In this document: positions 2,809 through 24,985 of the stretch, piece by piece
How positions within the stretch are numbered: position 1 is the first letter of the stretch
How the letters are laid out: each line of letters starts with the position of its first letter
The notes under the pieces: generated by a model
Seen by the model: the letters and a program-made list of their open reading frames with translations, nothing else
Databases searched by the model: none
What the model was told of the DNA's origin: nothing
Made by a program: the position numbers and the translations under genes
IMG/VR virus record: IMGVR_UViG_651703075_000001
Location: 1-64,000 of that record
Length of the DNA: 64,000 bases
Origin: a virus
Taxonomy: Duplodnaviria > Heunggongvirae > Uroviricota > Caudoviricetes
Strand: one strand, 5' to 3'

Positions 2809-3294
2809 ATGCCCTACACAGGCGATCCGAAGAACAATGTGGTCGATCAGCTCCGCCTGATGGTGGGGGATATCTGGGACGACATTGAAATCTTGACGGA
2901 CGAAGATTACCAATATTTTATCGACATGTACAATGGCAATATCCGCAGGGCTTTCCTGGACGTTGTACGGTCAATCCTCTTCAAGCTGGCACGTTACGTC
3001 AGGGAACGGACTGGTGATATTGAGGTCTACGGAAGTGACTGGTGGAAGGCCTATAGGCAAACTCTCCAGGATATCTTGAAGGACCCGAACCTGACAACCG
3101 TGATTGCTCTGCCCTACGTTGGAGGTGTGTCAGCCAAAGACATGGCCATGAACAATGCCAACCCAGACAACGTGGCACGGAAGATTTTCATTGGATTCAA
3201 TCGTGATTTGCGGCTTTACGAGCAGCAGAACGTAGGGTACAACGACATGCCGAGAATCGGGAAGGCCCTAGATGCCCAGCCGAATCTCTGCTGA
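2809..3294 (+). CDS. hypothetical head-tail connector/neck protein
   Basis: 161 aa ORF with RBS aaaggag; position between capsid and sheath. Confidence 0.4.
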   Translation: MPYTGDPKNNVVDQLRLMVGDIWDDIEILTDEDYQYFIDMYNGNIRRAFLDVVRSILFKLARYVRERTGDIEVYGSDWWKAYRQTLQDILKDPNLTTVIALPYVGGVSAKDMAMNNANPDNVARKIFIGFNRDLRLYEQQNVGYNDMPRIGKALDAQPNLC

Positions 3295-3739
3295 CTTTCG
3301 GAAGCTAGACGCTCTGATTGCCCGGATGGAGGCCTTGGACGGTCTGACGCTGGAAGGAGGCTTCTTCCCTGAAGACCGGTACGGTCCAGAGAATGGTAAC
3401 CTCCCAGTCGCCCAGGTGGCAGCCTACAACGTTTTCGGCACGGAAACCAACCCGGAACGAGACTTCATGACTCCCAGCTTTAGTGACTGGGCCACGGTGA
3501 ACTACTACCGGAAAGCCATGAAGCAGGTGGTAGAGGCTACCATTCGAGATGGGCGGACCCAGAAGGGGCAGCTCAACAAGATGGGCCGAACCATGGTGGA
3601 GATTATCCAGGTCAACATTGACGACTTCCCAGGCCATAACAGCGCTCGCTGGGCCCAGGTGAAAGGCTTTGACGACCCCCTGACCCATACGGGCAAGATG
3701 CAGGATAGCGTCAAGTACAAGATCGTGAGGAGGAAGTGA
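3272..3739 (+). CDS. hypothetical head-tail joining protein
   Basis: 155 aa ORF overlapping upstream gene; neck module position. Confidence 0.4.
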   Translation: MPSRISADFRKLDALIARMEALDGLTLEGGFFPEDRYGPENGNLPVAQVAAYNVFGTETNPERDFMTPSFSDWATVNYYRKAMKQVVEATIRDGRTQKGQLNKMGRTMVEIIQVNIDDFPGHNSARWAQVKGFDDPLTHTGKMQDSVKYKIVRRK

Positions 3740-15994: not shown

Positions 15995-18016
15995 ATGGCC
16001 AATATCAACAAGATCAGTATGAACCTGATTTGGGGCGTCTCTGGTGATATCACCGCCCCAGGTCCGGAAAAGATGAACAAGGGCTGGGAGGTGGAGGTAG
16101 TCCCCCGGCAATGGTTGAACTACCTGCAAAACCGGTTGGACACCAACGTGGCCTACCTGCTCCAGAAGGGCTTGCCTGAGTGGGACAGTGAGACCGAGTA
16201 TCAGGCAAACACCTCCTATGTACAACGCAACGGTGTAGTGTACAAGGCCTCTCGGACAAATACCAACAGTGAGCCTGGCACGACTGCGGGAAACACCAAC
16301 TGGAACCGGGCTTTCCAAGAGTGGTCTCCAGCTCTGGAGTCCTTGACGGCGCTTACCCCGACTGCGTGGAGATTCCCGTTCTACAACGCTTCAGGACAAG
16401 CAACCCTGGGTGGAATCACCTCCTACACTGTAGGGCTTATGGGTCTTAGCTCCGATGTAGCCTGGCGGGCAGAGCTGAAAGCTCAAGCGAGTGCTTCCCA
16501 GCTCACGTGGCTGTCCAACCTGGCACCTGTAGCTGGAGCTATCCCGTATTTCAATACGGCTACCTCCATGGCCAACCTGGCAACGACCCCGTTTGGTCGA
16601 AACTGGATCGGCGTAGCAGATGCCGCAACGGGTAGGTCGCAGCTTCAACTCGGCAGCGCTGCTGTCATGACGGCCACGGCTATTAATCAGGCGAGCACAG
16701 TTGTTGCCAGGGATTCTACAGGAACTGCCGCCATCGGGACGGTGATTGGTAGCCTGACCGGTAATGCTTCAACTGCGACTCGACTGCAAACCGGGAGAAA
16801 CATCAACGGCGTCCTTTTTGATGGAACCCAGGATATCACTCTCCCGCCCCTGACAGCGGATTACGCAGGGATAGTGGCTCGCCTCCACATCAACGGGGCG
16901 AACATGTCAGGGACTGATAAAACAACCCAGTTGGCACTCCGAAATAAGTCCAACACGGATTGGATCAGTCTGGCTGTAATAGAAGATAACATCCTCCAGT
17001 TTGCTTTCCGAAACACTTCGAACCCCATCGTACAGGTCGGAGGAGAAGTCGTTCTCCACACAGGGAACCAGTTCTCCCTTGGACCAACCCTAAGCGATGC
17101 CCGTAGTCGTCTAGGACTTGACCGAGTGTCCCAAGGGTCGTCCGATACCGTGGTATTCGCTAGCACGTTGAATAACGGTCCGTATTTGACCGTCCAACCA
17201 ACCGCTGTTGGAGGTTTTAACGGGGGAACGCAGACTTGGATGTTCCGATTCGATGGGACTGGGACATTGACTCACGGGACGGTCCCAGTTGCAAGGGTAT
17301 CGGGGCTGGCCAACTCGGCTCAAATCCCTGCTGTAACTACCGCACAATCCAATTCTCTGGTTCAGAGGGATTCAAGCGGGAGCTTTAGTGCGGTAGGCAT
17401 CAACGCCTACGGAAGCATTATCGGGTATGGATCGAACATTTTCAGCCGCTCCTCTGGTACAGGGAATGCCCACATCGGTTTCCAGAAGTCCGATGGGAGT
17501 GAGTTGGGCCTGATTTGGGGTGCTCCGTCCAACGGGTCCATGAACTTCCGGACTCTGGGTGGATCAACAGGCATGACGCTGACAGGCCAAGATTTGACTG
17601 TAGTCGGAAGGGTCAATGCGGCTACGCTGAACGCCTCCGGGAACGCTAACGTTTCAGGCAACGTGAACGTGGGAAGTGCTACCCTCAATACGGCAGGTAA
17701 CATCACGGGTCCTGCCTACGGGGCGTACAATTCCCTGACCAACTGGGTGGATTCGGTATATGCCAAGAAGGGTGAGATTCCTAACGACATTGCCCGAGCT
17801 GGAGCAGCCTGGGACGCCGTAGGGCAGTACATCCTGGCAGGAGACCAGTCAGGCGGGTCGGGGGGCCCTGGCACCATTAGGGCAGGGAGCCAACTGAAAC
17901 CGTACTCTACCATCAGTTACACCGCAGGGGCACTTCCGGCAGCCGGGCAGTACCGTTGCATGGGAGCGTTTGCAGGGGGTGGTAACCAGATCACCCTGTG
18001 GCAACGCATTTCCTAA
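15995..18016 (+). CDS. tail fiber protein 1
   Basis: 673 aa, Gly/Ser/Thr/Asn-rich beta-type composition; N-terminus homologous to N-terminus of second fiber. Confidence 0.6.
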   Translation: MANINKISMNLIWGVSGDITAPGPEKMNKGWEVEVVPRQWLNYLQNRLDTNVAYLLQKGLPEWDSETEYQANTSYVQRNGVVYKASRTNTNSEPGTTAGNTNWNRAFQEWSPALESLTALTPTAWRFPFYNASGQATLGGITSYTVGLMGLSSDVAWRAELKAQASASQLTWLSNLAPVAGAIPYFNTATSMANLATTPFGRNWIGVADAATGRSQLQLGSAAVMTATAINQASTVVARDSTGTAAIGTVIGSLTGNASTATRLQTGRNINGVLFDGTQDITLPPLTADYAGIVARLHINGANMSGTDKTTQLALRNKSNTDWISLAVIEDNILQFAFRNTSNPIVQVGGEVVLHTGNQFSLGPTLSDARSRLGLDRVSQGSSDTVVFASTLNNGPYLTVQPTAVGGFNGGTQTWMFRFDGTGTLTHGTVPVARVSGLANSAQIPAVTTAQSNSLVQRDSSGSFSAVGINAYGSIIGYGSNIFSRSSGTGNAHIGFQKSDGSELGLIWGAPSNGSMNFRTLGGSTGMTLTGQDLTVVGRVNAATLNASGNANVSGNVNVGSATLNTAGNITGPAYGAYNSLTNWVDSVYAKKGEIPNDIARAGAAWDAVGQYILAGDQSGGSGGPGTIRAGSQLKPYSTISYTAGALPAAGQYRCMGAFAGGGNQITLWQRIS

Positions 18017-18019
18017 CCA

Positions 18020-18046
18020 ACAAGGGGCTTCGGCCCCTTACTTCTA
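18020..18046 (+). terminator. hairpin terminator/attenuator (AAGGGGCTTCGGCCCCTT)
   Basis: UUCG-loop GC hairpin directly after fiber 1 stop, weak T tract. Confidence 0.4.
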
Positions 18047-18060
18047 CCTGGAAGGTGAGG

Positions 18061-18438
18061 ATGAAATTCAGAAACGTTGTAAAGTATAAGATGGGGTATG
18101 AGTGTGAGATTAAACACCCGGAATGGGGGTGGTCACCGTACTTCGCCTGCGACTACGACGAGAATGCGAAAAAGATTTATGACGCCATTGTGTCTGCCAT
18201 TGAGGCGGGTGACATCCCAGTCCCGGAAGATGTGTCTGACCGGGATTTGGTCATTGATGCCCGTAACTGGAGAGATAATGAACTACGAGATGCAGATCGT
18301 CAAGTAGAAATGGCCATAGACGATGAAGATGCGGTCAAAGAGAAGGCCTGGCGAAAGTATCGCTCAGCTCTGAGAAAGTGGCCTGAAAAGGCGGGATTCC
18401 CTTCCGCAAAGAGCCGCCCGCGCCGCCCCAAGAATTGA
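18061..18438 (+). CDS. tail fiber assembly protein (Tfa-like)
   Basis: 125 aa from ATG with RBS aaggtgagg; C-terminal W-x-x-YR-x-ALR-x-x-P-x-x-x-GFP motif typical of Tfa chaperones. Confidence 0.5.
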   Translation: MKFRNVVKYKMGYECEIKHPEWGWSPYFACDYDENAKKIYDAIVSAIEAGDIPVPEDVSDRDLVIDARNWRDNELRDADRQVEMAIDDEDAVKEKAWRKYRSALRKWPEKAGFPSAKSRPRRPKN

Positions 18439-18447
18439 GGAAAGATT

Positions 18448-19940
18448 ATGCCGCTTCCAAAACCTGACGACCTGTCCGTGATCTGGGCATCTATTGGGCA
18501 GGCGACCAAGCCTGCTCCAAACAAGATCATGACAGGTTGGACCAACGAAATCCCTCCCTACCAGTGGCACAACTGGTATTTCCAGAGGGTAGATAAGGCC
18601 CTGGCTCACATTAACCAGCAAGGCATCGCCATGTGGGATGCTGCCACCACTTACGAAGGGGGCACCAGCCGGCCAAAGGGTCAGACGGAATGGTGTACAA
18701 GGCCAAACGGTCCAGCCGAGGTGTTGACCCAGTATCTCCGGCAAGCAACCTGGACTGGGAACCCGCATTCGAGAGGTACGGTGAGGCTGCGAAAGTAAAT
18801 TCTCAGCTTCAATCCTTGAAAAAGGATTATGAAACACTGGCCAATATCAGCAACATTGCCATGGCCAGGCAAAACCTCTCGGTATATTCCAAAGCCGAGA
18901 CGGATGTCCGATATGCCTTCAAGGCTGGGGCAGCCGGGCAGGTGTTTGCTGTAGCCCCTGCCACCGCAGGGAGCCATGCAGTACCAAGGGATCAGTTGCC
19001 ATCCTTGTACCCCCGAGCAGGCGCGGCGCCGGGTATTATCGCCCTGGCAAGCCAAGCGGAAGGATACGCAGGCACCGTTGAGAACAAGGCGATTGCACCG
19101 AGTGTCCTGAAAGCACTCACCCTGTATAAGAGCCAGAATCTGGCGGACCTCCCGGATAAGCAGCTTGCCCGGGCGAACCTGGGCCTGGCCAGCTCTGCTG
19201 TGTTGCCGGAAAACACCTGGTTGAAAACTGCTAGCAACCTGGCTGATGTCCCCAACAAAGCCGCAGCCCGTGCCAACTTGGGGATCACGTCTTCAGCGCT
19301 CCTCCCCGAGAGCACCTGGTTGAAAACTGCTAGCAACCTGGCTGATGTTCCTAACAAGCCCGCAGCACGGGCTAACCTGGAGATCACAGACACTGCTACG
19401 CTGCCGGTTGGCGACGTGATGCGTAAGAGTCAGAACCTGGCAGGGTTGACCAACGTTCCTCAAGCCCGTGCCAACTTGGGTTTGGGGACTATGGCAACTG
19501 CCAACTCGGGAGACTTCCTAACCTCGGCGAACAACCTTGGAGATGTCAGGGATGCACAAGCAGCCCGGAACAACCTGGGCTTGAAAGGATGTGCTACTCT
19601 GGACGCTCTGGGTCTACCGAACGGAGCAACTGGCCTAGACTTCCAATCGGAACAATCCTCCAGCGCATCCGGCTGGGCAGCTCTTCCGAACGGGTTGATC
19701 CTTCAGTGGGGTCAAGGCCCTGCACTGTACGATGATCGGTCTACGATTGTCCGGCTGCCACGCCAGGCTCGAATCCTGAACGTGAGCGTAACTGTGATGG
19801 GCACTTTCAACGCCTCTATCGGGCCTGGCGCCTACATGACGGACCAGTGGAGTAATACTCAGTTCCGTGTATCGTGCAACTGGGGCAACTGGGCGTATCC
19901 GTTCTGCTGGTTCGCTATCACCACCATCTACGGGATGTAG
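18448..19940 (+). pseudogene. tail fiber protein 2, reading frame interrupted at G5 run 18658-18662 (sequencing error, frameshift mutation, or recoding)
   Basis: N-terminal 70 aa in frame 1 and remaining 426 aa in frame 0 both align with fiber 1 N-terminus (IWxxxG..P.P.K...GW, then GxVYKAxR); contains NL-x-D-x-x-x-x-x-x-AR-x-NLGL fiber repeats and a 102-nt tandem duplication. Confidence 0.5.
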
Positions 19941-19941
19941 T

Positions 19942-20505
19942 ATGATCACCGACAGAGAGTATCAGCAAGCTGCTGAGATGTTGGGGGTAGATGTCCCAGC
20001 GATCAAGGCAGTGACCAAGGTGGAGGCCCCGGTAGGGGGCTTCCAGCCTACAGGAGAGCCAACGATCCTCTACGAGCGTCACCAGATGTACCGACAGCTC
20101 CAGGCCAAAGGGCTCCCAACGGAAGGTCATCCCCCAGACCTGGTAAATAAGGTAGCTGGTGGGTATGGAAAATACAGCGAGCAACACGCTAAACTGGCCC
20201 GCGCCGTAAAGATCGACAGGGACAGCGCCCTGGAGTCCTGCTCCTGGGGGATGTTCCAGATCATGGGCTACCACTGGAAGCTGATGGGGTACCCTACCCT
20301 TCAAGCTTTCGTAAACGCCATGTACGCCAGCGAAGGAGCCCAGATGGACGCCTTCTGCCGGTTCATCAAGGCACAACCCACCACGCATGCTGCCTTGAAA
20401 GCCCACGATTGGGCCAAGTTTGCCAGACTGTACAACGGTCCAGGCTACGCCAAGAACAAGTATGACGTGAAATTGGAGAAAGCATATGCTGAAGCTAGTG
20501 GCTGA
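19942..20505 (+). CDS. endolysin, N-acetylmuramidase family (DUF3380/PF11860-like)
   Basis: 187 aa; motifs GGFQPTGEP, ILYERH, WGMFQIMGYHW, EGAQMDAF, YNGPGYAKNKYD match phage muramidase endolysins. Confidence 0.65.
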   Translation: MITDREYQQAAEMLGVDVPAIKAVTKVEAPVGGFQPTGEPTILYERHQMYRQLQAKGLPTEGHPPDLVNKVAGGYGKYSEQHAKLARAVKIDRDSALESCSWGMFQIMGYHWKLMGYPTLQAFVNAMYASEGAQMDAFCRFIKAQPTTHAALKAHDWAKFARLYNGPGYAKNKYDVKLEKAYAEASG

Positions 20506-20752
20506 AAAGGCCAAGCTGCACCGTAGCAGTACAGTGGTGCTGAGCATCTTCCTCTTCATCCTCTCGATGCTGATCATCTTCGAGCCGCTGATCCCAGGGC
20601 TTGCAGGTGTTCTCGGTCCCGACCTATACCCCAAGGTCGTGGCAGGCGTCTCCATGCTGATTGCAGCAGGCCGGTACATCGTCCAAACCTCCCTCCGGGG
20701 CATGGTAGTTCAAGTATCGGATGAGATTCCCAAGGAGGAAGAGGAAAAATGA
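20486..20752 (+). CDS. holin (class II-like, two TMDs)
   Basis: 88 aa, two hydrophobic segments (VVLSIFLFILSMLIIF; VVAGVSMLIAAG), charged C-tail EEEEK, overlaps endolysin end. Confidence 0.45.
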   Translation: MLKLVAEKAKLHRSSTVVLSIFLFILSMLIIFEPLIPGLAGVLGPDLYPKVVAGVSMLIAAGRYIVQTSLRGMVVQVSDEIPKEEEEK

Positions 20753-21166
20753 AACTGATGACTGCCATGCGGATAGCGTTGGTAGTCCCTCGTTCTGGGG
20801 CTCTCCTGGCTTCTCCGGGAGAGTCATCAGAAAATCGACAGGCTGGAGCAGAGCCTGGCTTCTCTGGAGGCCAGCTACGCAGAAGCATCGGCATCGTACC
20901 GATCCTTCCGAAAGCAATGTCTGTCCGTGTTCTCAATGAACGAGGAACTGGTGATTCAAAACAAGACCCTGGAGGCCTCTGTGGGCTCCGTGGTACAACG
21001 TTTGGATCGGACCCCTACACTGACCCTACCCGAGGTGAAAGATGCGCCTACGAGCGTTCCTGGGCATGTGGCTGCTGAGCGTCTCTCTCCTGGGACTATG
21101 GAGTTGCTCAACGAAGCCTTCTGTGCCGCAGCCCCCGCAGGTCATCCTGCCTGTGCTCCCAAATGA
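20749..21166 (+). pseudogene. i-spanin (Rz)-like gene needing +1 frame change near 20786-20800
   Basis: frame 1 start MKLMTAMRIALVVP (20749) and frame 2 continuation SLVLGLSWLL + coiled coil IDRLEQSLASLEASYAEA... to stop 21166 together give TMD + periplasmic coiled coil; frame 2 has no start codon of its own. Confidence 0.35.
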
Positions 21167-21614
21167 GTGGACAACCCCCTGCGTAATCTTCCCGGTGGAA
21201 GAGGACACGGTAAAGGCCTTGGCCAAGGGGTACGTCCTGAACACTGGTGCAGCAGGTTGCGCCAACAACAAACTCCACTTCATCCAGCAGGGTACAAAGA
21301 CCTGGAGGCCCAGTATGGCAGCCGCACGCAGTAACAACGAAGACTCCCAGTGGAAGTATGTACTGGACCTGGCAGCAAAGTTCCTCCTACCCCTGCTGAT
21401 GGCATGGGCCACCTGGCAACAGACGCAGATTGGTAAGGTAGAGGATAGGCTGTATGCCCTCCAAGCTGTTGCTGTGACCGAGCAAAAACTGGTTGCCACG
21501 GAAAGCCGTATCCTGAACTACCTGGATGTTCGGCTAGGGGACCTGGACAAGAAGATGGAGGTCAATCAGAAATACTCCGAAATGATCATCCAGATGATGA
21601 AGCAGGAGCGGTAA
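21042..21614 (+). CDS. lipoprotein, o-spanin-like N-terminus fused to coiled-coil C-terminal region
   Basis: signal peptide + LGLWSC lipobox-like site, Pro-rich SVPQPPQVILPVLP, start embedded in Rz-like ORF (Rz1-like arrangement); 190 aa is long for o-spanin. Confidence 0.45.
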   Translation: MRLRAFLGMWLLSVSLLGLWSCSTKPSVPQPPQVILPVLPNEWTTPCVIFPVEEDTVKALAKGYVLNTGAAGCANNKLHFIQQGTKTWRPSMAAARSNNEDSQWKYVLDLAAKFLLPLLMAWATWQQTQIGKVEDRLYALQAVAVTEQKLVATESRILNYLDVRLGDLDKKMEVNQKYSEMIIQMMKQER

Positions 21615-21629
21615 ACGAGAGGTGTCCTC

Positions 21630-21917
21630 ATGACGAAGGCCCACGAAATCACCGTCCTGGGGATGCTCTTCGCTACACTGCTGACTCTGGTGGTCGGTTT
21701 GGGAGTTCTGGTCTACTACGCTCAACGAGTGACCAGCACCGAGTACCAGTTCGACATCATCCGGAAGGAGTACCGGCTCAGCCTGGAAGAGATGCGGCGA
21801 GACTTCGATATCCGAACAAACAGACTGCAAGAGCAAATCAATGCCATGCAGTATACCACGTCTAAGCAGATGCGGCTGCTTCAAGAAGAGCAGGACAACC
21901 TCAAGCGGAAAAGATGA
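21630..21917 (+). CDS. membrane coiled-coil protein (i-spanin-like / lysis-associated)
   Basis: 95 aa, N-terminal TMD ITVLGMLFATLLTLVVGLGVLVYY followed by charged coiled coil; last gene before terminator. Confidence 0.45.
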   Translation: MTKAHEITVLGMLFATLLTLVVGLGVLVYYAQRVTSTEYQFDIIRKEYRLSLEEMRRDFDIRTNRLQEQINAMQYTTSKQMRLLQEEQDNLKRKR

Positions 21918-21950
21918 GCCCCACTGGCCACAAGCTGGTGGGGCTTTTTC
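21917..21950 (+). terminator. rho-independent terminator
   Basis: GCCCCACTGGCCACAAGCTGGTGGGGC hairpin + TTTTT. Confidence 0.7.
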
Positions 21951-21968
21951 ACGCCCGGAGAAAAGTAG

Positions 21969-21997
21969 TTGACATCCCCCACAACACCCTATACAGT
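21969..21997 (+). promoter_or_regulatory. sigma70-like promoter TTGACA-N17-TACAGTGGCC
   Basis: same extended consensus as early promoter family; sits right after terminator and before 22026 gene. Confidence 0.55.
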
Positions 21998-22025
21998 GGC
22001 CGCATCAACAACTTGAGGAGGTTCC

Positions 22026-22445
22026 ATGGATAAGGTTTCCATCGACGCAACATTTGACATTGAATCGGTGATCACCGAGCCGGATGGGATAGTATACTCG
22101 GACTACCACAAAGGAACTCCCTTAGGAGTAACCGCCACTCTCCGTGTGAACATGCCCAAACGGGACTCCCGCAGGGTGTGGAAGACTCTCTTGGCCATGG
22201 ATTTCTCGGCCCTGGAGCAGCGTGTATTGGCAGCCATGCTGACTTCTGGAGGGTTGGTTATGCTTCTAGAGGATGGTAAGCTGTACGATCAGAACGGCGC
22301 CCAGATAGAGCACCCCCGTGATAAGCTCGTGGTGATCTTCGATGAGTGGGACAAGCTTTCCAAAAATCAGCGCCACCTTCGCGCCAAGAAGCACCGTACA
22401 GCCCCCAAGAACCCTCAACTGCGAAAGAATCACTGGAACCGTTGA
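22026..22445 (+). CDS. hypothetical protein
   Basis: 139 aa, RBS gaggagg. Confidence 0.5.
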   Translation: MDKVSIDATFDIESVITEPDGIVYSDYHKGTPLGVTATLRVNMPKRDSRRVWKTLLAMDFSALEQRVLAAMLTSGGLVMLLEDGKLYDQNGAQIEHPRDKLVVIFDEWDKLSKNQRHLRAKKHRTAPKNPQLRKNHWNR

Positions 22446-23492: not shown

Positions 23493-23759
23493 ATGGAACT
23501 CGACATCCGCCAACCCAACCCTCCCTTCGATACCATCCGGATTGCGGATATCAGCGACGATATGAGCAATGTGTGCCTGATCACGTGCAAAGAGGCCCCT
23601 CCCGGAGCTGTGCGCTTGGTGTACCCGGACGAAGGCCAGGCTACATTTGGAATGCCAGGAGATATCGTGCAACAAGAGCTTCTGGTGGAGGACAAGATGC
23701 ACGCCAACTTCCTTATCATGGCGCTGGAGAAGGCTATCGAGTTGGGGTGGCTGAAATGA
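23493..23759 (+). CDS. hypothetical protein
   Basis: 88 aa, RBS aaggaggtacc. Confidence 0.5.
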   Translation: MELDIRQPNPPFDTIRIADISDDMSNVCLITCKEAPPGAVRLVYPDEGQATFGMPGDIVQQELLVEDKMHANFLIMALEKAIELGWLK

Positions 23760-24124
23760 TGGGACTGCCGATCTACCTGAGCGTTAGCGTCTACCACTTG
23801 GCAGGCCTTATCGCAGTCGCCTGCCTGGTCTACTGGGGTATCATCAAGATGACCCGGAGCGAGGTTGAACGAGGAAACATGACCAAGCCGCAAGCGTCCT
23901 GGTGGCGTAAGTGGTACCCCGTGTGGGCTATCGTCTGCATCTCGGTCTCGTGCCTGGGCTTCGGCTACAAGGTGGAAGAGATTCGCCCGGTGGGCACGTT
24001 CCAATCCCATCCCACAACTGTTGACACAGGGGAGAAGAAGGAGTATCGTGCATACCGTGAAAAGGCAGAAGAGCGGTTCAACAAGACCCTCGAAGCCATC
24101 GAAACGAAAAACAACCTGAAGTAA
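23756..24124 (+). CDS. membrane protein, two TMDs (possible partner of SPFH protein)
   Basis: 122 aa from ATG overlapping upstream stop; TMDs LSVSVYHLAGLIAVACLVYWGII and VWAIVCISVSCLGFG; directly upstream of SPFH gene. Confidence 0.45.
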   Translation: MMGLPIYLSVSVYHLAGLIAVACLVYWGIIKMTRSEVERGNMTKPQASWWRKWYPVWAIVCISVSCLGFGYKVEEIRPVGTFQSHPTTVDTGEKKEYRAYREKAEERFNKTLEAIETKNNLK

Positions 24125-24133
24125 GGAGGAAAG

Positions 24134-24985
24134 ATGTTCAAGAACCTGATGCGTGGCGTCGCCATTGTCCTGGCCCTGGCCCTGGTTGCAGGCTGCTCTG
24201 ATGTGGTACCGCCTGCCATGAAAGGCAAGCACCTCAGCGGTAGTGGCTACAGCACCAACGTCCTCGAACCTGGCCGTCACTGGCGCGCCCCGTGGACTCG
24301 TATCGTGATGCTGGATGTCTCCACCCAGACCGTCGCCGAGCCCCTGAAAGTGAAGATGGCCGACAATCTGGACCTGACGTTCGTGGTACGCTTCCGTACT
24401 CGAATCGCAGGCACCGAGCGAACCATCAATGCCATGTTCAACGATATCCGGGTGGAGAATGACCGAGTAACTCTCCAGCAGGTGTATGGTGTCTACGGTA
24501 AGGATGTGGTACAACGTGTCAGCCGCTCGGTCCTGGGCAAGTACCGCACCCAGGATGTGGCAGCCAACTTCGACAAGATCAACCAAGCCCTACACTCCCA
24601 ACTGGTAGCAGCAATGGAGGGTAGCCCTTTGGAGGTGAGCAACATCACCCTGGCTGACCTGCAATACCCGGAAGTGATTACGAAGGCTATCGAAGCTCAG
24701 AACGAGCGAGAGCTGGCTATCAAGACCGCCGAGAACGAACAGGCTATCGAGATGGTCAAGCGTGAGAACGCCCTGAAACTGGCCGAGGCGGATCGTGAAA
24801 TCGAACTGACCAAAGCACGTACTCTGGCTGACCAGAACGAAATCACGAACCGTGGCCTGTCGGAGCGGCTGCTCCAGTACAAGGCGCTGGAAGTCCAGAT
24901 GGAAATGACCAAGAATTCCTCTGCGGTGTTCGTACCCTACGAGGCTCTGACCAGCCCCGGCTTCCAGAACCGCGTCTACAAGTGA
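24134..24985 (+). CDS. SPFH/band-7 (stomatin/prohibitin/HflK-C-like) domain lipoprotein
   Basis: 283 aa; signal peptide + LVAGC lipobox; L-x-PG-x-H-x-x-x-P...V-x-VD-x-x-x-Q core and C-terminal Ala/Glu-rich coiled coil AIEAQNERELAIKTAENEQAIEMVKRENALKLAEADREIELTKA typical of SPFH proteins. Confidence 0.6.
   Translation: MFKNLMRGVAIVLALALVAGCSDVVPPAMKGKHLSGSGYSTNVLEPGRHWRAPWTRIVMLDVSTQTVAEPLKVKMADNLDLTFVVRFRTRIAGTERTINAMFNDIRVENDRVTLQQVYGVYGKDVVQRVSRSVLGKYRTQDVAANFDKINQALHSQLVAAMEGSPLEVSNITLADLQYPEVITKAIEAQNERELAIKTAENEQAIEMVKRENALKLAEADREIELTKARTLADQNEITNRGLSERLLQYKALEVQMEMTKNSSAVFVPYEALTSPGFQNRVYK

What the first reader, a model, noticed from the sequence alone, without database searches (positions are those of the whole stretch)
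20749..21917. Atypical spanin region with a frame-interrupted Rz-like gene, a long Rz1-like lipoprotein and a third TM coiled-coil gene
After the holin, frame 1 gives a plausible TMD start (MKLMTAMRIALVVP) that degenerates into low-complexity sequence. Frame 2 (20786-21166) encodes a clean hydrophobic stretch plus coiled coil (SLVLGLSWLL-RESHQKIDRLEQSLASLEASYAEA...) but has no start codon. A +1 change near 20786-20800 would yield a classic i-spanin. A lipoprotein gene (lipobox-like LGLWSC, Pro-rich) starts embedded at 21042 as an Rz1 would, but runs 190 aa with its own C-terminal amphipathic and coiled-coil region. A third TMD plus coiled-coil protein (21630-21917) follows. This is either a sequencing or frameshift defect in Rz, or an unusual three-part envelope-disruption system.
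Basis: partly seen in the sequence, partly recalled or inferred. Interest (0 to 1): 0.55.

Follow-up and report, generated by a model that had tools for sequence, protein, structure and literature searches.

The report
Ordinary spanin genes broken by indels
The odd-looking lysis genes are an ordinary two-gene outer-membrane disruption (spanin) pair of Pseudomonas phage KPP10 that looks broken and fused only because this one database record carries two single-base insertion/deletion differences, most likely sequencing errors, that none of the 14 related sequences read at these sites shares.

Summary
The window is bases 1-64000 of Pseudomonas phage KPP10 (Nankokuvirus). Frame 1 (20749-21078) starts like a membrane anchor and then degenerates. 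Frame 2 (20786-21166) holds the rest of an Rz-type i-spanin but has no start codon. A 190-aa lipoprotein ORF starts at 21042.

Both anomalies come from two 1-nt differences found only in KPP10: an extra C at 20786-88 (CCC instead of CC) and a missing T after 21290. Thirteen related phage genomes and one IMG/VR contig all lack both changes. They all encode:
- an intact 138-aa Rz;
- a 97-aa Rz1 (lipobox LWSC), overlapping Rz in the +1 frame;
- a separate 99-aa gene;
- the 95-aa gene.

The spanin pair of the close relative PAK_P5 is already catalogued as an 'overlapped' pair in Kongari et al. 2018. That paper lists KPP10 as 'spanin-less'.

A third KPP10-only frameshift, at 18670, splits the tail-fibre gene. 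These three are the only KPP10-private isolated frameshifts in the 88-kb genome, and all lie within 2.6 kb. This points to a stretch of poor sequence rather than biology.

There is no three-part or unimolecular spanin system. The one open point is the two conserved small membrane/coiled-coil genes that follow Rz1 in five phage groups; their function is unknown.

The parts
19942..20505 (+). Endolysin (soluble N-acetylmuramidase), first gene of the lysis cassette
   Evidence: Pfam PF11860 Muramidase, 201.7 bits, E = 1.5e-59. phrog_2860 endolysin, E = 2e-90. Annotated as endolysin in RefSeq.
20486..20752 (+). Holin-like 88-aa protein with two hydrophobic segments and an acidic C-terminal tail
   Evidence: Weak match to phrog_1356 holin, E = 9.8e-5; Pfam DUF7940 is below its cut-off. 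Hydrophobic segments at residues ~13-45 and 50-67. Identical in all 14 genomes. The homologous position is annotated as holin in Zigelbrucke and phiPsa374.
20749..21166 (+). i-spanin (Rz-like) gene, interrupted in this record by one extra C. Frame 1 covers 20749-20787 and frame 2 covers 20789-21166. It is 417 nt / 138 aa in all relatives.
   Evidence: Alignments. The PAK_P3 orthologue matches phrog_4349 'Rz-like spanin' full length at E = 3e-53. The repaired protein has an N-terminal membrane segment (Kyte-Doolittle 2.28), a perfect heptad pattern at residues 28-56, and Cys 57, 125 and 135. The PAK_P5 orthologue is listed as an overlapped i-spanin in SpaninDB.
20786..20788 (+). KPP10-private +1 insertion (CCC where all relatives have CC), inside the Rz membrane segment
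   Evidence: All 13 relatives and one IMG/VR contig have CC. The resulting 109-aa ORF28 product exists on one contig only among ~15 billion proteins.
21042..21334 (+). o-spanin (Rz1/LysC-like lipoprotein) gene, overlapping Rz by ~125 nt in the +1 frame. It is 97 aa in relatives: a 21-aa signal peptide, lipobox LWSC, and a 76-aa mature protein. In this record its last 14 codons are out of frame.
   Evidence: Pfam PF23793 LysC, 47.7 bits against a cut-off of 27. phrog_456 covers residues 10-94. The PAK_P5 orthologue is in SpaninDB as a 97/76-aa overlapped o-spanin in the +1 frame. Translations. The C-terminal W...Y motif is conserved in PAK_P1 and Pyxpy02 and lost in KPP10.
21290..21291 (+). KPP10-private -1 deletion: the T of the conserved Trp codon TGG is missing between these two bases. 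This fuses Rz1 to the next gene.
   Evidence: All 13 relatives and the IMG/VR contig have CAGCAGTGGTAC where KPP10 has CAGCAGGGTAC. The 190-aa product is seen on one contig only.
21315..21614 (+). Separate 99-aa gene ('gpA', phrog_4172, function unknown): one moderately hydrophobic segment plus a heptad-patterned helix. It has its own GGAGG ribosome-binding site and ATG. In this record it is hidden inside the 190-aa ORF29.
   Evidence: phrog_4172, E = 7e-44. It is a separate 300-nt gene in all relatives. Homologues sit at the same position in Pakpuna-, Otago- and Flaumdravirus and in Pyxpy02.
21630..21917 (+). 95-aa gene ('gpB', phrog_3899, function unknown): a strongly hydrophobic N-terminal membrane segment plus a heptad-patterned helix. 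It is the last gene of the late/lysis transcription unit.
   Evidence: phrog_3899, E = 6e-40. Kyte-Doolittle 2.58. The protein is identical in 12 of the 13 relatives; PAK_P5 differs only in having a GTG start codon. The family has ~157 clusters, the longest contigs ~90-100 kb, and the named members are all Pseudomonas phages. Synteny shown.
21916..21946 (+). Rho-independent terminator that closes the cassette
   Evidence: 13-bp hairpin followed by UUUUU, free energy -24.5 kcal/mol, z = -4.6. The sequence is identical to the PAK_P3 site annotated as 'Rho-Independent Terminator (RNA-Seq)'.
18670..18671 (+). Third KPP10-private -1 deletion, splitting the tail-fibre gene into ORFs 18448-18798 and 18633-19940. 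This is context for judging the quality of the record.
   Evidence: All 12 relatives covering the site have an extra T. The tail fibre is 497 aa in relatives, against an annotated 416 aa in KPP10 seen on one contig only.

Best explanation
The region is the standard lysis cassette of Nankokuvirus phages. In order it holds a soluble muramidase endolysin, a two-segment holin-like protein, an 'overlapped' two-component spanin pair, two small conserved membrane/coiled-coil genes of unknown function, and a terminator. The spanin pair consists of Rz, a 138-aa inner-membrane-anchored coiled-coil protein, and Rz1, a 97-aa outer-membrane lipoprotein whose gene starts inside Rz in the +1 frame and runs past its end.

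In the KPP10 record two private single-base differences distort this layout. An extra C at 20786-88 shifts Rz out of frame after codon 13. A missing T at 21290/91 shifts the last 14 codons of Rz1 into the frame of the next gene, producing an apparent 190-aa lipoprotein. These differences are most likely sequencing or assembly errors in a locally poor stretch of the 2009-2011 record (inferred, not shown).

The real phage would then lyse as other spanin-bearing phages do; this mechanism is inferred from established work on lambda, P2 and T4 spanins. The holin permeabilises the inner membrane and the endolysin degrades the cell wall. Rz-Rz1 complexes, joined through their C-termini across the periplasm, then fuse the inner and outer membranes.
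For: The window is identical to KPP10 AB472900.2 with the same numbering.

- **Pairwise comparison.** Alignment with PAK_P3 shows exactly two indels in 900 bp.
- **Wider comparison.** Thirteen Nankokuvirus genomes from France, China, Thailand, India, Cote d'Ivoire and other sources (several records give no country), plus one IMG/VR contig, all carry CC and the T. All 13 genomes encode intact products of 138, 97, 99 and 95 aa. No other record among 41 is 100% identical over 20740-21340. The two closest (G1, PH826) differ there only by these two indels.
- **Family matches.** Repaired Rz matches phrog_4349 end to end at 3e-53. Rz1 matches Pfam LysC above threshold. The 190-aa ORF matches two unrelated families side by side. 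The 109-aa ORF28 matches nothing and has no membrane segment.
- **Conserved residue destroyed.** The deleted T destroys a Trp codon conserved in Rz1 of three genera.
- **No independent sighting.** The KPP10-type products occur on a single contig among ~15 billion proteins. The intact Rz variants occur on 3-21 contigs, including independent Logan assemblies.
- **Clustering.** A third private frameshift splits the tail-fibre gene. A genome-wide census found that the only isolated non-3n indels separating KPP10 from both closest relatives lie at 18018-21290. One of these (18018) is polymorphic among relatives, so three private frameshifts fall within 2.6 kb of an 88.3-kb genome.
- **Literature.** Kongari et al. 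2018 (PMC6139136) catalogue the PAK_P5 orthologues as an overlapped +1 spanin pair. They list KPP10 as 'spanin-less' and name sequencing error as the first reason for such cases.
Against: - No reads or chromatograms are available, so error and real mutation cannot be told apart directly.
- Spanin-null phages are viable in the laboratory, so a real Rz defect in the sequenced stock would not be lethal.
- Only one of the three indels (CC to CCC) is a homopolymer-length change, the classic error type.
- The record is already a revised version (.2), yet it still carries these differences.
- The original KPP10 genome paper could not be read, so the sequencing method is unknown to me.
Confidence: 0.8

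Rival explanations
1. The indels are real mutations in the sequenced KPP10 stock. KPP10 would then be a natural or laboratory spanin-null phage with Rz truncated after 13 residues and Rz1 fused to the next protein. It would lyse through holin and endolysin plus shear forces alone.
For: Kongari et al. list ~13% of phages as having no recognisable spanin, and spanin mutants of lambda plaque normally without added divalent cations (PMC6139136, and established knowledge). The sequence as deposited is internally consistent.
Against: This requires three independent private frameshifts within 2.6 kb, with no others anywhere in 88 kb. One of them cuts the N-terminal ~75 residues off a tail-fibre protein that is 497 aa in every relative, which an infectious therapeutic phage is unlikely to tolerate. 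There is no independent sighting of any KPP10-type product. Relatives of the same ICTV species (VL12) are intact.
Confidence: 0.15
2. This is an unusual envelope-disruption system. The 190-aa lipoprotein, with its internal hydrophobic segment, would act like a unimolecular spanin, or would work with the 95-aa protein as a three-part system.
For: The fusion ORF superficially combines an N-terminal lipobox with a later hydrophobic segment, as the u-spanin T1 gp11 does.
Against: The ORF is a side-by-side chimera of two families that are separate genes in 13 of 13 relatives and in four other phage groups. The hydrophobic segment is followed by ~67 further residues rather than sitting at the C-terminus. 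The fusion removes the conserved Rz1 C-terminal W...Y motif. The product is unique to one record.
Confidence: 0.02
3. Programmed +1 ribosomal frameshifting or transcriptional slippage at GTC-CCT-CGT joins frame 1 to frame 2 to make full-length Rz.
For: The shift needed is exactly +1, at a short C run, and it would restore the protein.
Against: No relative has the extra base, so there is no conserved recoding site. The P-site codon GUC cannot re-pair in the +1 frame (UCC). A CCC run is far too short for transcriptional slippage. A second, opposite-sign shift at a non-slippery site (CAG-GGT) would also be needed for Rz1.
Confidence: 0.01

Closest known systems
Rz/Rz1 of Pseudomonas phages PAK_P5 and PAK_P3 (Nankokuvirus). 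The PAK_P5 pair is in SpaninDB of Kongari et al. 2018 as 'overlapped', +1 frame, 138-aa i-spanin and 97-aa o-spanin.
   Same: After the two 1-nt repairs, Rz differs by 2 residues (A108T, A136T) and Rz1 is identical. Start codons, ribosome-binding sites, 124-125-nt overlap, lipobox LWSC and cysteine positions are the same.
   Different: Only the two private indels in the KPP10 record. Several RefSeq relatives annotate Rz1 with a downstream start (46, 60 or 70 aa) that lacks the lipobox.
Phage P2 LysB/LysC, the prototype overlapped two-component spanin (Pfam PF23793 LysC)
   Same: The o-spanin gene starts inside the i-spanin gene in the +1 frame and extends beyond it. Rz1 matches the LysC Pfam model above its cut-off. 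The i-spanin has an N-terminal membrane anchor and a coiled coil.
   Different: Low sequence identity. The Nankokuvirus Rz matches its own PHROG (4349) and only weakly matches the broader Rz PHROGs 214 and 739.
Phage lambda Rz/Rz1, the best-studied spanin complex
   Same: Two-component design: a type II inner-membrane protein with a periplasmic coiled coil, a Pro-rich outer-membrane lipoprotein, and periplasmic cysteines in both. It sits last in a holin-endolysin cassette.
   Different: In lambda Rz1 is fully embedded in Rz; here it overlaps and runs past the end. Gene order here is endolysin then holin. No sequence-level match to lambda Rz was sought or found.
Escherichia phage ADB-2 'missing' u-spanin, the example in Kongari et al. 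2018 of a spanin hidden by a sequencing error
   Same: A clear spanin homologue sits in a lysis cassette, but its reading frame or signal is lost in one record. That phage too is listed as spanin-less.
   Different: That case is a unimolecular spanin lacking its lipoprotein signal. Here a two-component pair carries two frameshifts.

Membership tests
Two-component spanin, i-spanin (Rz/LysB type) | Intact ORF with its own start codon encoding the whole protein | tested here: not met
   As deposited, the gene is split between frames 1 and 2 by an extra C at 20786-88. The feature is met in all 13 relatives, and in KPP10 after a 1-nt repair.
Two-component spanin, i-spanin (Rz/LysB type) | N-terminal transmembrane anchor followed by a periplasmic domain with coiled-coil helices | tested here: met
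   The repaired protein has a Kyte-Doolittle mean of 2.28 over residues 1-25 and a perfect a/d heptad pattern at residues 28-56. Kongari's table gives a coiled coil at 21-60 for PAK_P5. Topology (N-terminus inside) was not tested.
Two-component spanin, i-spanin (Rz/LysB type) | Sequence membership in an Rz family | tested here: met
   phrog_4349 'Rz-like spanin', E = 3e-53, residues 1-138 against profile positions 1-142 of 142. Weak matches to phrog_214 and phrog_739. No Pfam Rz family match.
Two-component spanin, o-spanin (Rz1/LysC type) | Signal peptide ending in a lipobox with the lipidated Cys, and no Asp at position +2 | tested here: met
   MRLRAFLGMWLLSVSLLGLWS|C22-S-T-K. LWSC deviates from the strict [LVI][ASTVI][GAS]C consensus at position -2 (Trp). 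Kongari et al. accept it for PAK_P5 and experimentally validated the similar AWAC lipobox. Lipidation itself was not tested.
Two-component spanin, o-spanin (Rz1/LysC type) | Small Pro-rich mature protein that matches the LysC/Rz1 family over its length, including the C-terminus | tested here: inconclusive
   Relatives score 47.7 bits on PF23793 (cut-off 27) over residues 18-87, with a 76-aa mature protein. In KPP10 as deposited, residues 1-83 match (39.6 bits) but the conserved C-terminal W...Y motif is replaced by out-of-frame sequence and a 99-aa fusion.
Two-component spanin (pair) | The o-spanin gene is embedded in, overlapping or adjacent to the i-spanin gene within a lysis cassette | tested here: met
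   Rz1 starts at 21042 inside Rz (which ends at 21166), in the +1 frame, directly after the endolysin and holin genes.
Two-component spanin (pair) | Function: required for outer-membrane disruption; complements lambda Rz/Rz1 mutants | not testable with these tools
   I found no experimental data for any Nankokuvirus spanin.
Unimolecular spanin (T1 gp11 type) | A single protein with an N-terminal lipoprotein signal and a transmembrane segment at the extreme C-terminus | tested here: not met
   In the 190-aa ORF the hydrophobic segment lies at ~106-123 and is followed by ~67 residues. The ORF is a chimera of phrog_5388/LysC and phrog_4172. It is absent from all relatives.
Programmed ribosomal frameshift site | A slippery sequence conserved among relatives that all need the shift to make the product | tested here: not met
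   All 13 relatives encode Rz in a single frame with no extra base. GUC-CCU allows no +1 re-pairing, as read directly from the sequence.

The most novel reading that the evidence does not exclude
The two small single-pass membrane/coiled-coil proteins at 21315-21614 (phrog_4172) and 21630-21917 (phrog_3899) are uncharacterised lysis factors. They might be holin regulators or spanin accessories, which would make this a six-gene lysis module. In Nankoku-, Pakpuna-, Otago- and Flaumdravirus and in Pyxpy02 they lie downstream of Rz1, directly in four of these and after an inserted endonuclease gene in Pyxpy02. A terminator is annotated just after them in the two records that annotate terminators. 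A much less likely variant (about 2%) is that KPP10 really carries the frameshifts and its Rz1-gpA fusion works as a makeshift unimolecular spanin.
Probability: 0.3. Interest if true: 0.4.

Novelty: already known. Interest (0 to 1): 0.1.

Why it matters
Biologically it matters little, because the spanin pair is conventional and already catalogued for sister phages. The practical value is curatorial.

- KPP10 is the type phage of Nankokuvirus and a phage-therapy model. Its reference record (NC_015272.2) carries three frame-breaking single-base differences, in the tail fibre, Rz and Rz1.
- These differences generate four misleading proteins in NCBI and UniProt: ORF25, ORF28, ORF29 and probably ORF31.
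- They probably explain why KPP10 was counted among 'spanin-less' phages in the reference survey of spanins.
- Correcting the record removes a false example from the debate over whether phages of Gram-negative hosts can do without spanins.
- Two conserved, unstudied membrane proteins sit at the end of the lysis operon in five phage groups and are cheap to test.

Tried and rejected
- **Programmed frameshift or transcriptional slippage.** Rejected: there is no slippery site and no conservation.
- **Unimolecular-spanin reading of the 190-aa ORF.** Rejected: it is a two-family chimera unique to one record.
- **The two downstream genes as paralogues of Rz or of each other.** BLASTP found no alignment, and hhalign gave probabilities of 2-15%.
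- **Using protein accession series to argue that this region was specifically revised in version 2 of the record.** Dropped: revised accessions (BAK789xx) are spread across the genome.
- **Single-sequence search of the 5.8-billion-protein set with the 95-aa protein.** It returned only itself. The three-genus profile reached 157 clusters but gave no informative names or Pfam domains.
- **Literature search for the sequencing method or for any remark on KPP10 frameshifts.** The KPP10 genome paper is not held. Henry et al. 2015 and Chevallereau et al. 2016 contain none of the terms I searched (frameshift, sequencing error, endolysin, holin, truncated and similar), and Essoh et al. 2015 never mentions frameshifts.
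- **The simple terminator scan.** It missed the post-cassette terminator. Folding confirmed the hairpin.
- **Topology of the two unknown proteins from flanking charges.** Ambiguous by eye and not pursued.
Full report
**Identity of the window.** A megablast of 19900-22100 hits Pseudomonas phage KPP10 (AB472900.2 / NC_015272.2) at 100% identity with identical coordinates. Forty other records of the same genus (Nankokuvirus) match at 95-99.8%. In KPP10 the region is annotated as:
- ORF26 endolysin (19942-20505);
- ORF27 (20486-20752);
- ORF28 (20749-21078);
- ORF29 (21042-21614);
- ORF30 (21630-21917);
- ORF31 (21914-22033).

**The observation.**
- Frame 1 from the ATG at 20749 reads MKLMTAMRIALVVP and then non-hydrophobic sequence to 21078. 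This 109-aa product has no membrane-grade hydrophobic stretch (maximum Kyte-Doolittle 1.40) and matches no PHROG or Pfam family.
- Frame 2 opens after the TAG at 20783-85 and reads SLVLGLSWLLRESHQKIDRLEQ... to 21166, with no canonical start before 20927.
- A 190-aa ORF with a lipoprotein-type signal (…LGLWS|C) starts at 21042.
- A 95-aa ORF with one strong hydrophobic segment follows at 21630.

**What causes it.** Pairwise alignment with PAK_P3 shows just two indels in 900 bp. KPP10 has GTAGTCCCTCG where PAK_P3 has GTAGTCCTCG (an extra C at 20786-88). KPP10 has CAGCAGGGTAC where PAK_P3 has CAGCAGTGGTAC (a T missing after 21290).

I fetched the region from 13 relatives: G1, PH826, CHA_P1, PS24, VL12, Epa18, Epa24, PAK_P5, PAK_P3, LSL4, Ab03, Ab17 and NCVTCBPA170. 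An exact-pattern scan of IMG/VR added one contig. All 14 have CC and the T.

Across 41 database records, none except KPP10's own two entries is 100% identical over 20740-21340. The two closest (G1, PH826; 99.7%) differ there only by these two indels.

In all 13 genomes the region encodes four intact genes:
- Rz, 138 aa;
- Rz1, 97 aa, from the ATG equivalent to KPP10 21042;
- a separate 99-aa gene (KPP10 21315-21614);
- the 95-aa gene.

**What the genes are.**
- *Rz.* The single-frame Rz matches phrog_4349 'Rz-like spanin' end to end (E = 3e-53) and weakly matches two broader Rz PHROGs. It has an N-terminal membrane segment, a perfect heptad stretch at residues 28-56, and three cysteines. An alignment with the Pakpunavirus and Pyxpy02 orthologues keeps all three cysteines and the C-terminal RLSP..M.LL..AFC motif.
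- *Rz1.* The 97-aa Rz1 matches Pfam PF23793 'Rz1-like lysis system protein LysC' above its cut-off (47.7 against 27 bits). It matches phrog_456 over residues 10-94, which supports the long form with the signal peptide.
- *The 190-aa ORF.* KPP10's 190-aa ORF matches LysC/phrog_5388 in residues 19-87 and an unrelated family, phrog_4172, in residues 95-190. It is therefore a chimera of two genes. The missing T lies in a Trp codon that is conserved in Rz1 of PAK_P1 (Pakpunavirus) and Pyxpy02. KPP10's reading diverges from all three exactly there.

**Already known.** Kongari et al. 2018 (PMC6139136) list the PAK_P5 orthologues in their spanin database. The entry gives architecture 'ovl', frame +1, i-spanin 23660-24076 (138 aa) and o-spanin 23952-24245 (97 aa, 76 mature). 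This is exactly the structure reconstructed here.

The same paper lists KPP10 among Pseudomonas phages in which no spanin could be found. It names sequencing error as the first explanation for such cases. RefSeq annotates 'Rz-like spanin' twice in PAK_P3, PAK_P5, CHA_P1, PS24, G1, Ab03 and LSL4.

**Error or real mutation?** No reads are available, so this step is inferred. Four observations favour error.
1. A third KPP10-only single-base deletion at 18670 splits the tail-fibre gene, which is a single 497-aa ORF in all 12 relatives that cover it. An infectious phage is unlikely to tolerate this.
2. A census of the whole 88,322-bp genome against the two closest relatives found four isolated non-3n indels separating KPP10 from both, at 18018, 18670, 20787 and 21290. 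The one at 18018 is intergenic and polymorphic among relatives. The three private frameshifts therefore all fall within 2.6 kb, or 3% of the genome. By my own estimate the chance of that under a uniform distribution is roughly 0.003. This suggests a locally poor stretch of sequence.
3. The KPP10-type products (109 aa, 190 aa and the 416-aa tail fibre) each occur on one contig only among ~15 billion proteins. The intact Rz variants occur on 3-21 contigs, including independent Logan assemblies.
4. Three conserved genes would each have to be hit independently.

Against error: spanin-null phages are viable in the laboratory, only one indel is a homopolymer-length change, and the record has already been revised once. 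I put error at about 0.8 and real mutation at about 0.15.

**Alternatives excluded.**
- *Programmed frameshifting.* No relative needs it, GUC-CCU offers no +1 re-pairing, and a second shift of opposite sign would be required.
- *A unimolecular-spanin-like role for the 190-aa ORF.* It is a chimera, its hydrophobic segment is not C-terminal, it lacks the conserved Rz1 C-terminus, and it is unique to one record.

**The 'third' gene.** There are really two such genes, and both are genuine and conserved.
- tblastn finds the 99-aa protein in 96 phage records and the 95-aa protein in 167. All are Pseudomonas phages except one Pectobacterium phage.
- The gene order tail fibre - endolysin - holin - Rz - Rz1 - gpA - gpB recurs in Zigelbrucke (Pakpunavirus), where the last two are annotated 'putative lysis module protein'. 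It also recurs in Pyxpy02, phiPsa374 (Otagovirus) and KIL1 (Flaumdravirus). The KIL1 record annotates a terminator right after gpB.
- In PAK_P3 an RNA-seq-supported terminator lies immediately after the 95-aa gene. The identical hairpin is present in KPP10 at 21916-21946 (-24.5 kcal/mol, z = -4.6).
- A three-genus profile search found ~157 protein clusters. The longest contigs are ~90-100 kb, the named members are all Pseudomonas phages, and none carries a Pfam domain or an informative name.
- The two proteins are not detectably related to each other or to Rz.

Their position suggests a role in lysis, but there is no evidence for spanin activity. This is the only open question left in the region.

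**Verdict.** The 'three-part system' alternative is not supported. What is there is a conventional, already catalogued overlapped Rz/Rz1 pair, disguised by two record-specific single-base indels. Interest is low.

Noticed in passing
window 18448-19940 (indel at 18670/71): The KPP10 tail-fibre gene is split by a private 1-nt deletion (GCC-GGCC where relatives have GCCTGGCC). The annotated ORF25 (18690-19940, 416 aa) lacks ~80 N-terminal residues present in the 497-aa protein of all relatives.
   Followed up: yes
window 21914-22033 (KPP10 ORF31): This annotated 39-aa ORF spans the terminator hairpin (21916-21946) and a strong sigma-70-like promoter (TTGACA-17-TACAGT, 21969-21997). Both are annotated from RNA-seq or prediction in PAK_P3. 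It is probably not a gene.
   Followed up: partly
window 21315-21614 and 21630-21917: Two small membrane/coiled-coil genes (phrog_4172, phrog_3899) of unknown function follow Rz1 at the end of the rightward late gene block in five groups of ~85-100-kb Pseudomonas myoviruses (directly in four; after an inserted endonuclease gene in Pyxpy02). Some annotators call them 'putative lysis module protein' or 'Lysis protein' without evidence.
   Followed up: partly
window ~21634-21781, minus strand: The PAK_P3 record annotates an RNA-seq-derived antisense RNA (as14) opposite the 5' half of the 95-aa gene. Over the PAK_P3 locus 3235-3382 the region is near-identical in KPP10.
   Followed up: no
L002 2723-2935; L008 3213-3395; L014 3255-3395 (relatives): Rz1 is annotated with downstream starts in GenBank and RefSeq relatives (70, 60 or 46 aa), which removes the signal peptide and lipobox. 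[quoted passage not shown] PH826, VL12 and Epa24 do not annotate Rz1 at all.
   Followed up: yes
window 18012-18025: The A-run length (AA against AAA) just upstream of the tail-fibre assembly gene is polymorphic among Nankokuviruses. KPP10 shares AA with VL12, Epa18 and NCVTCBPA170. It is intergenic, so it is not a KPP10-specific defect.
   Followed up: yes
window 19214-19312: Phage G1 has a 99-bp in-frame deletion relative to KPP10 within the repetitive (…ARANLG…) part of the tail-fibre gene. This is repeat-number variation in a probable receptor-binding fibre.
   Followed up: no
protein clusters (not in the window): Fragments of Nankokuvirus Rz and Rz1 are filed in NCBI as partial 'Staphylococcus aureus' proteins (WP_217468804.1, WP_217468832.1) on 320-349-bp contigs. 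An 88,329-bp Nankokuvirus-sized contig sits in a 'Pseudomonas aeruginosa' assembly with a split tail fibre. These are likely contamination or phage carry-over.
   Followed up: no
L020 1604-1885 (Pyxpy02); L022 ~1960-2110 (phiPsa374): Unannotated Rz1 genes in other genera. Pyxpy02 has a 93-aa ORF with lipobox LCAC overlapping its Rz, and an HNH-type endonuclease gene is inserted between Rz1 and the two downstream genes.
   Followed up: partly
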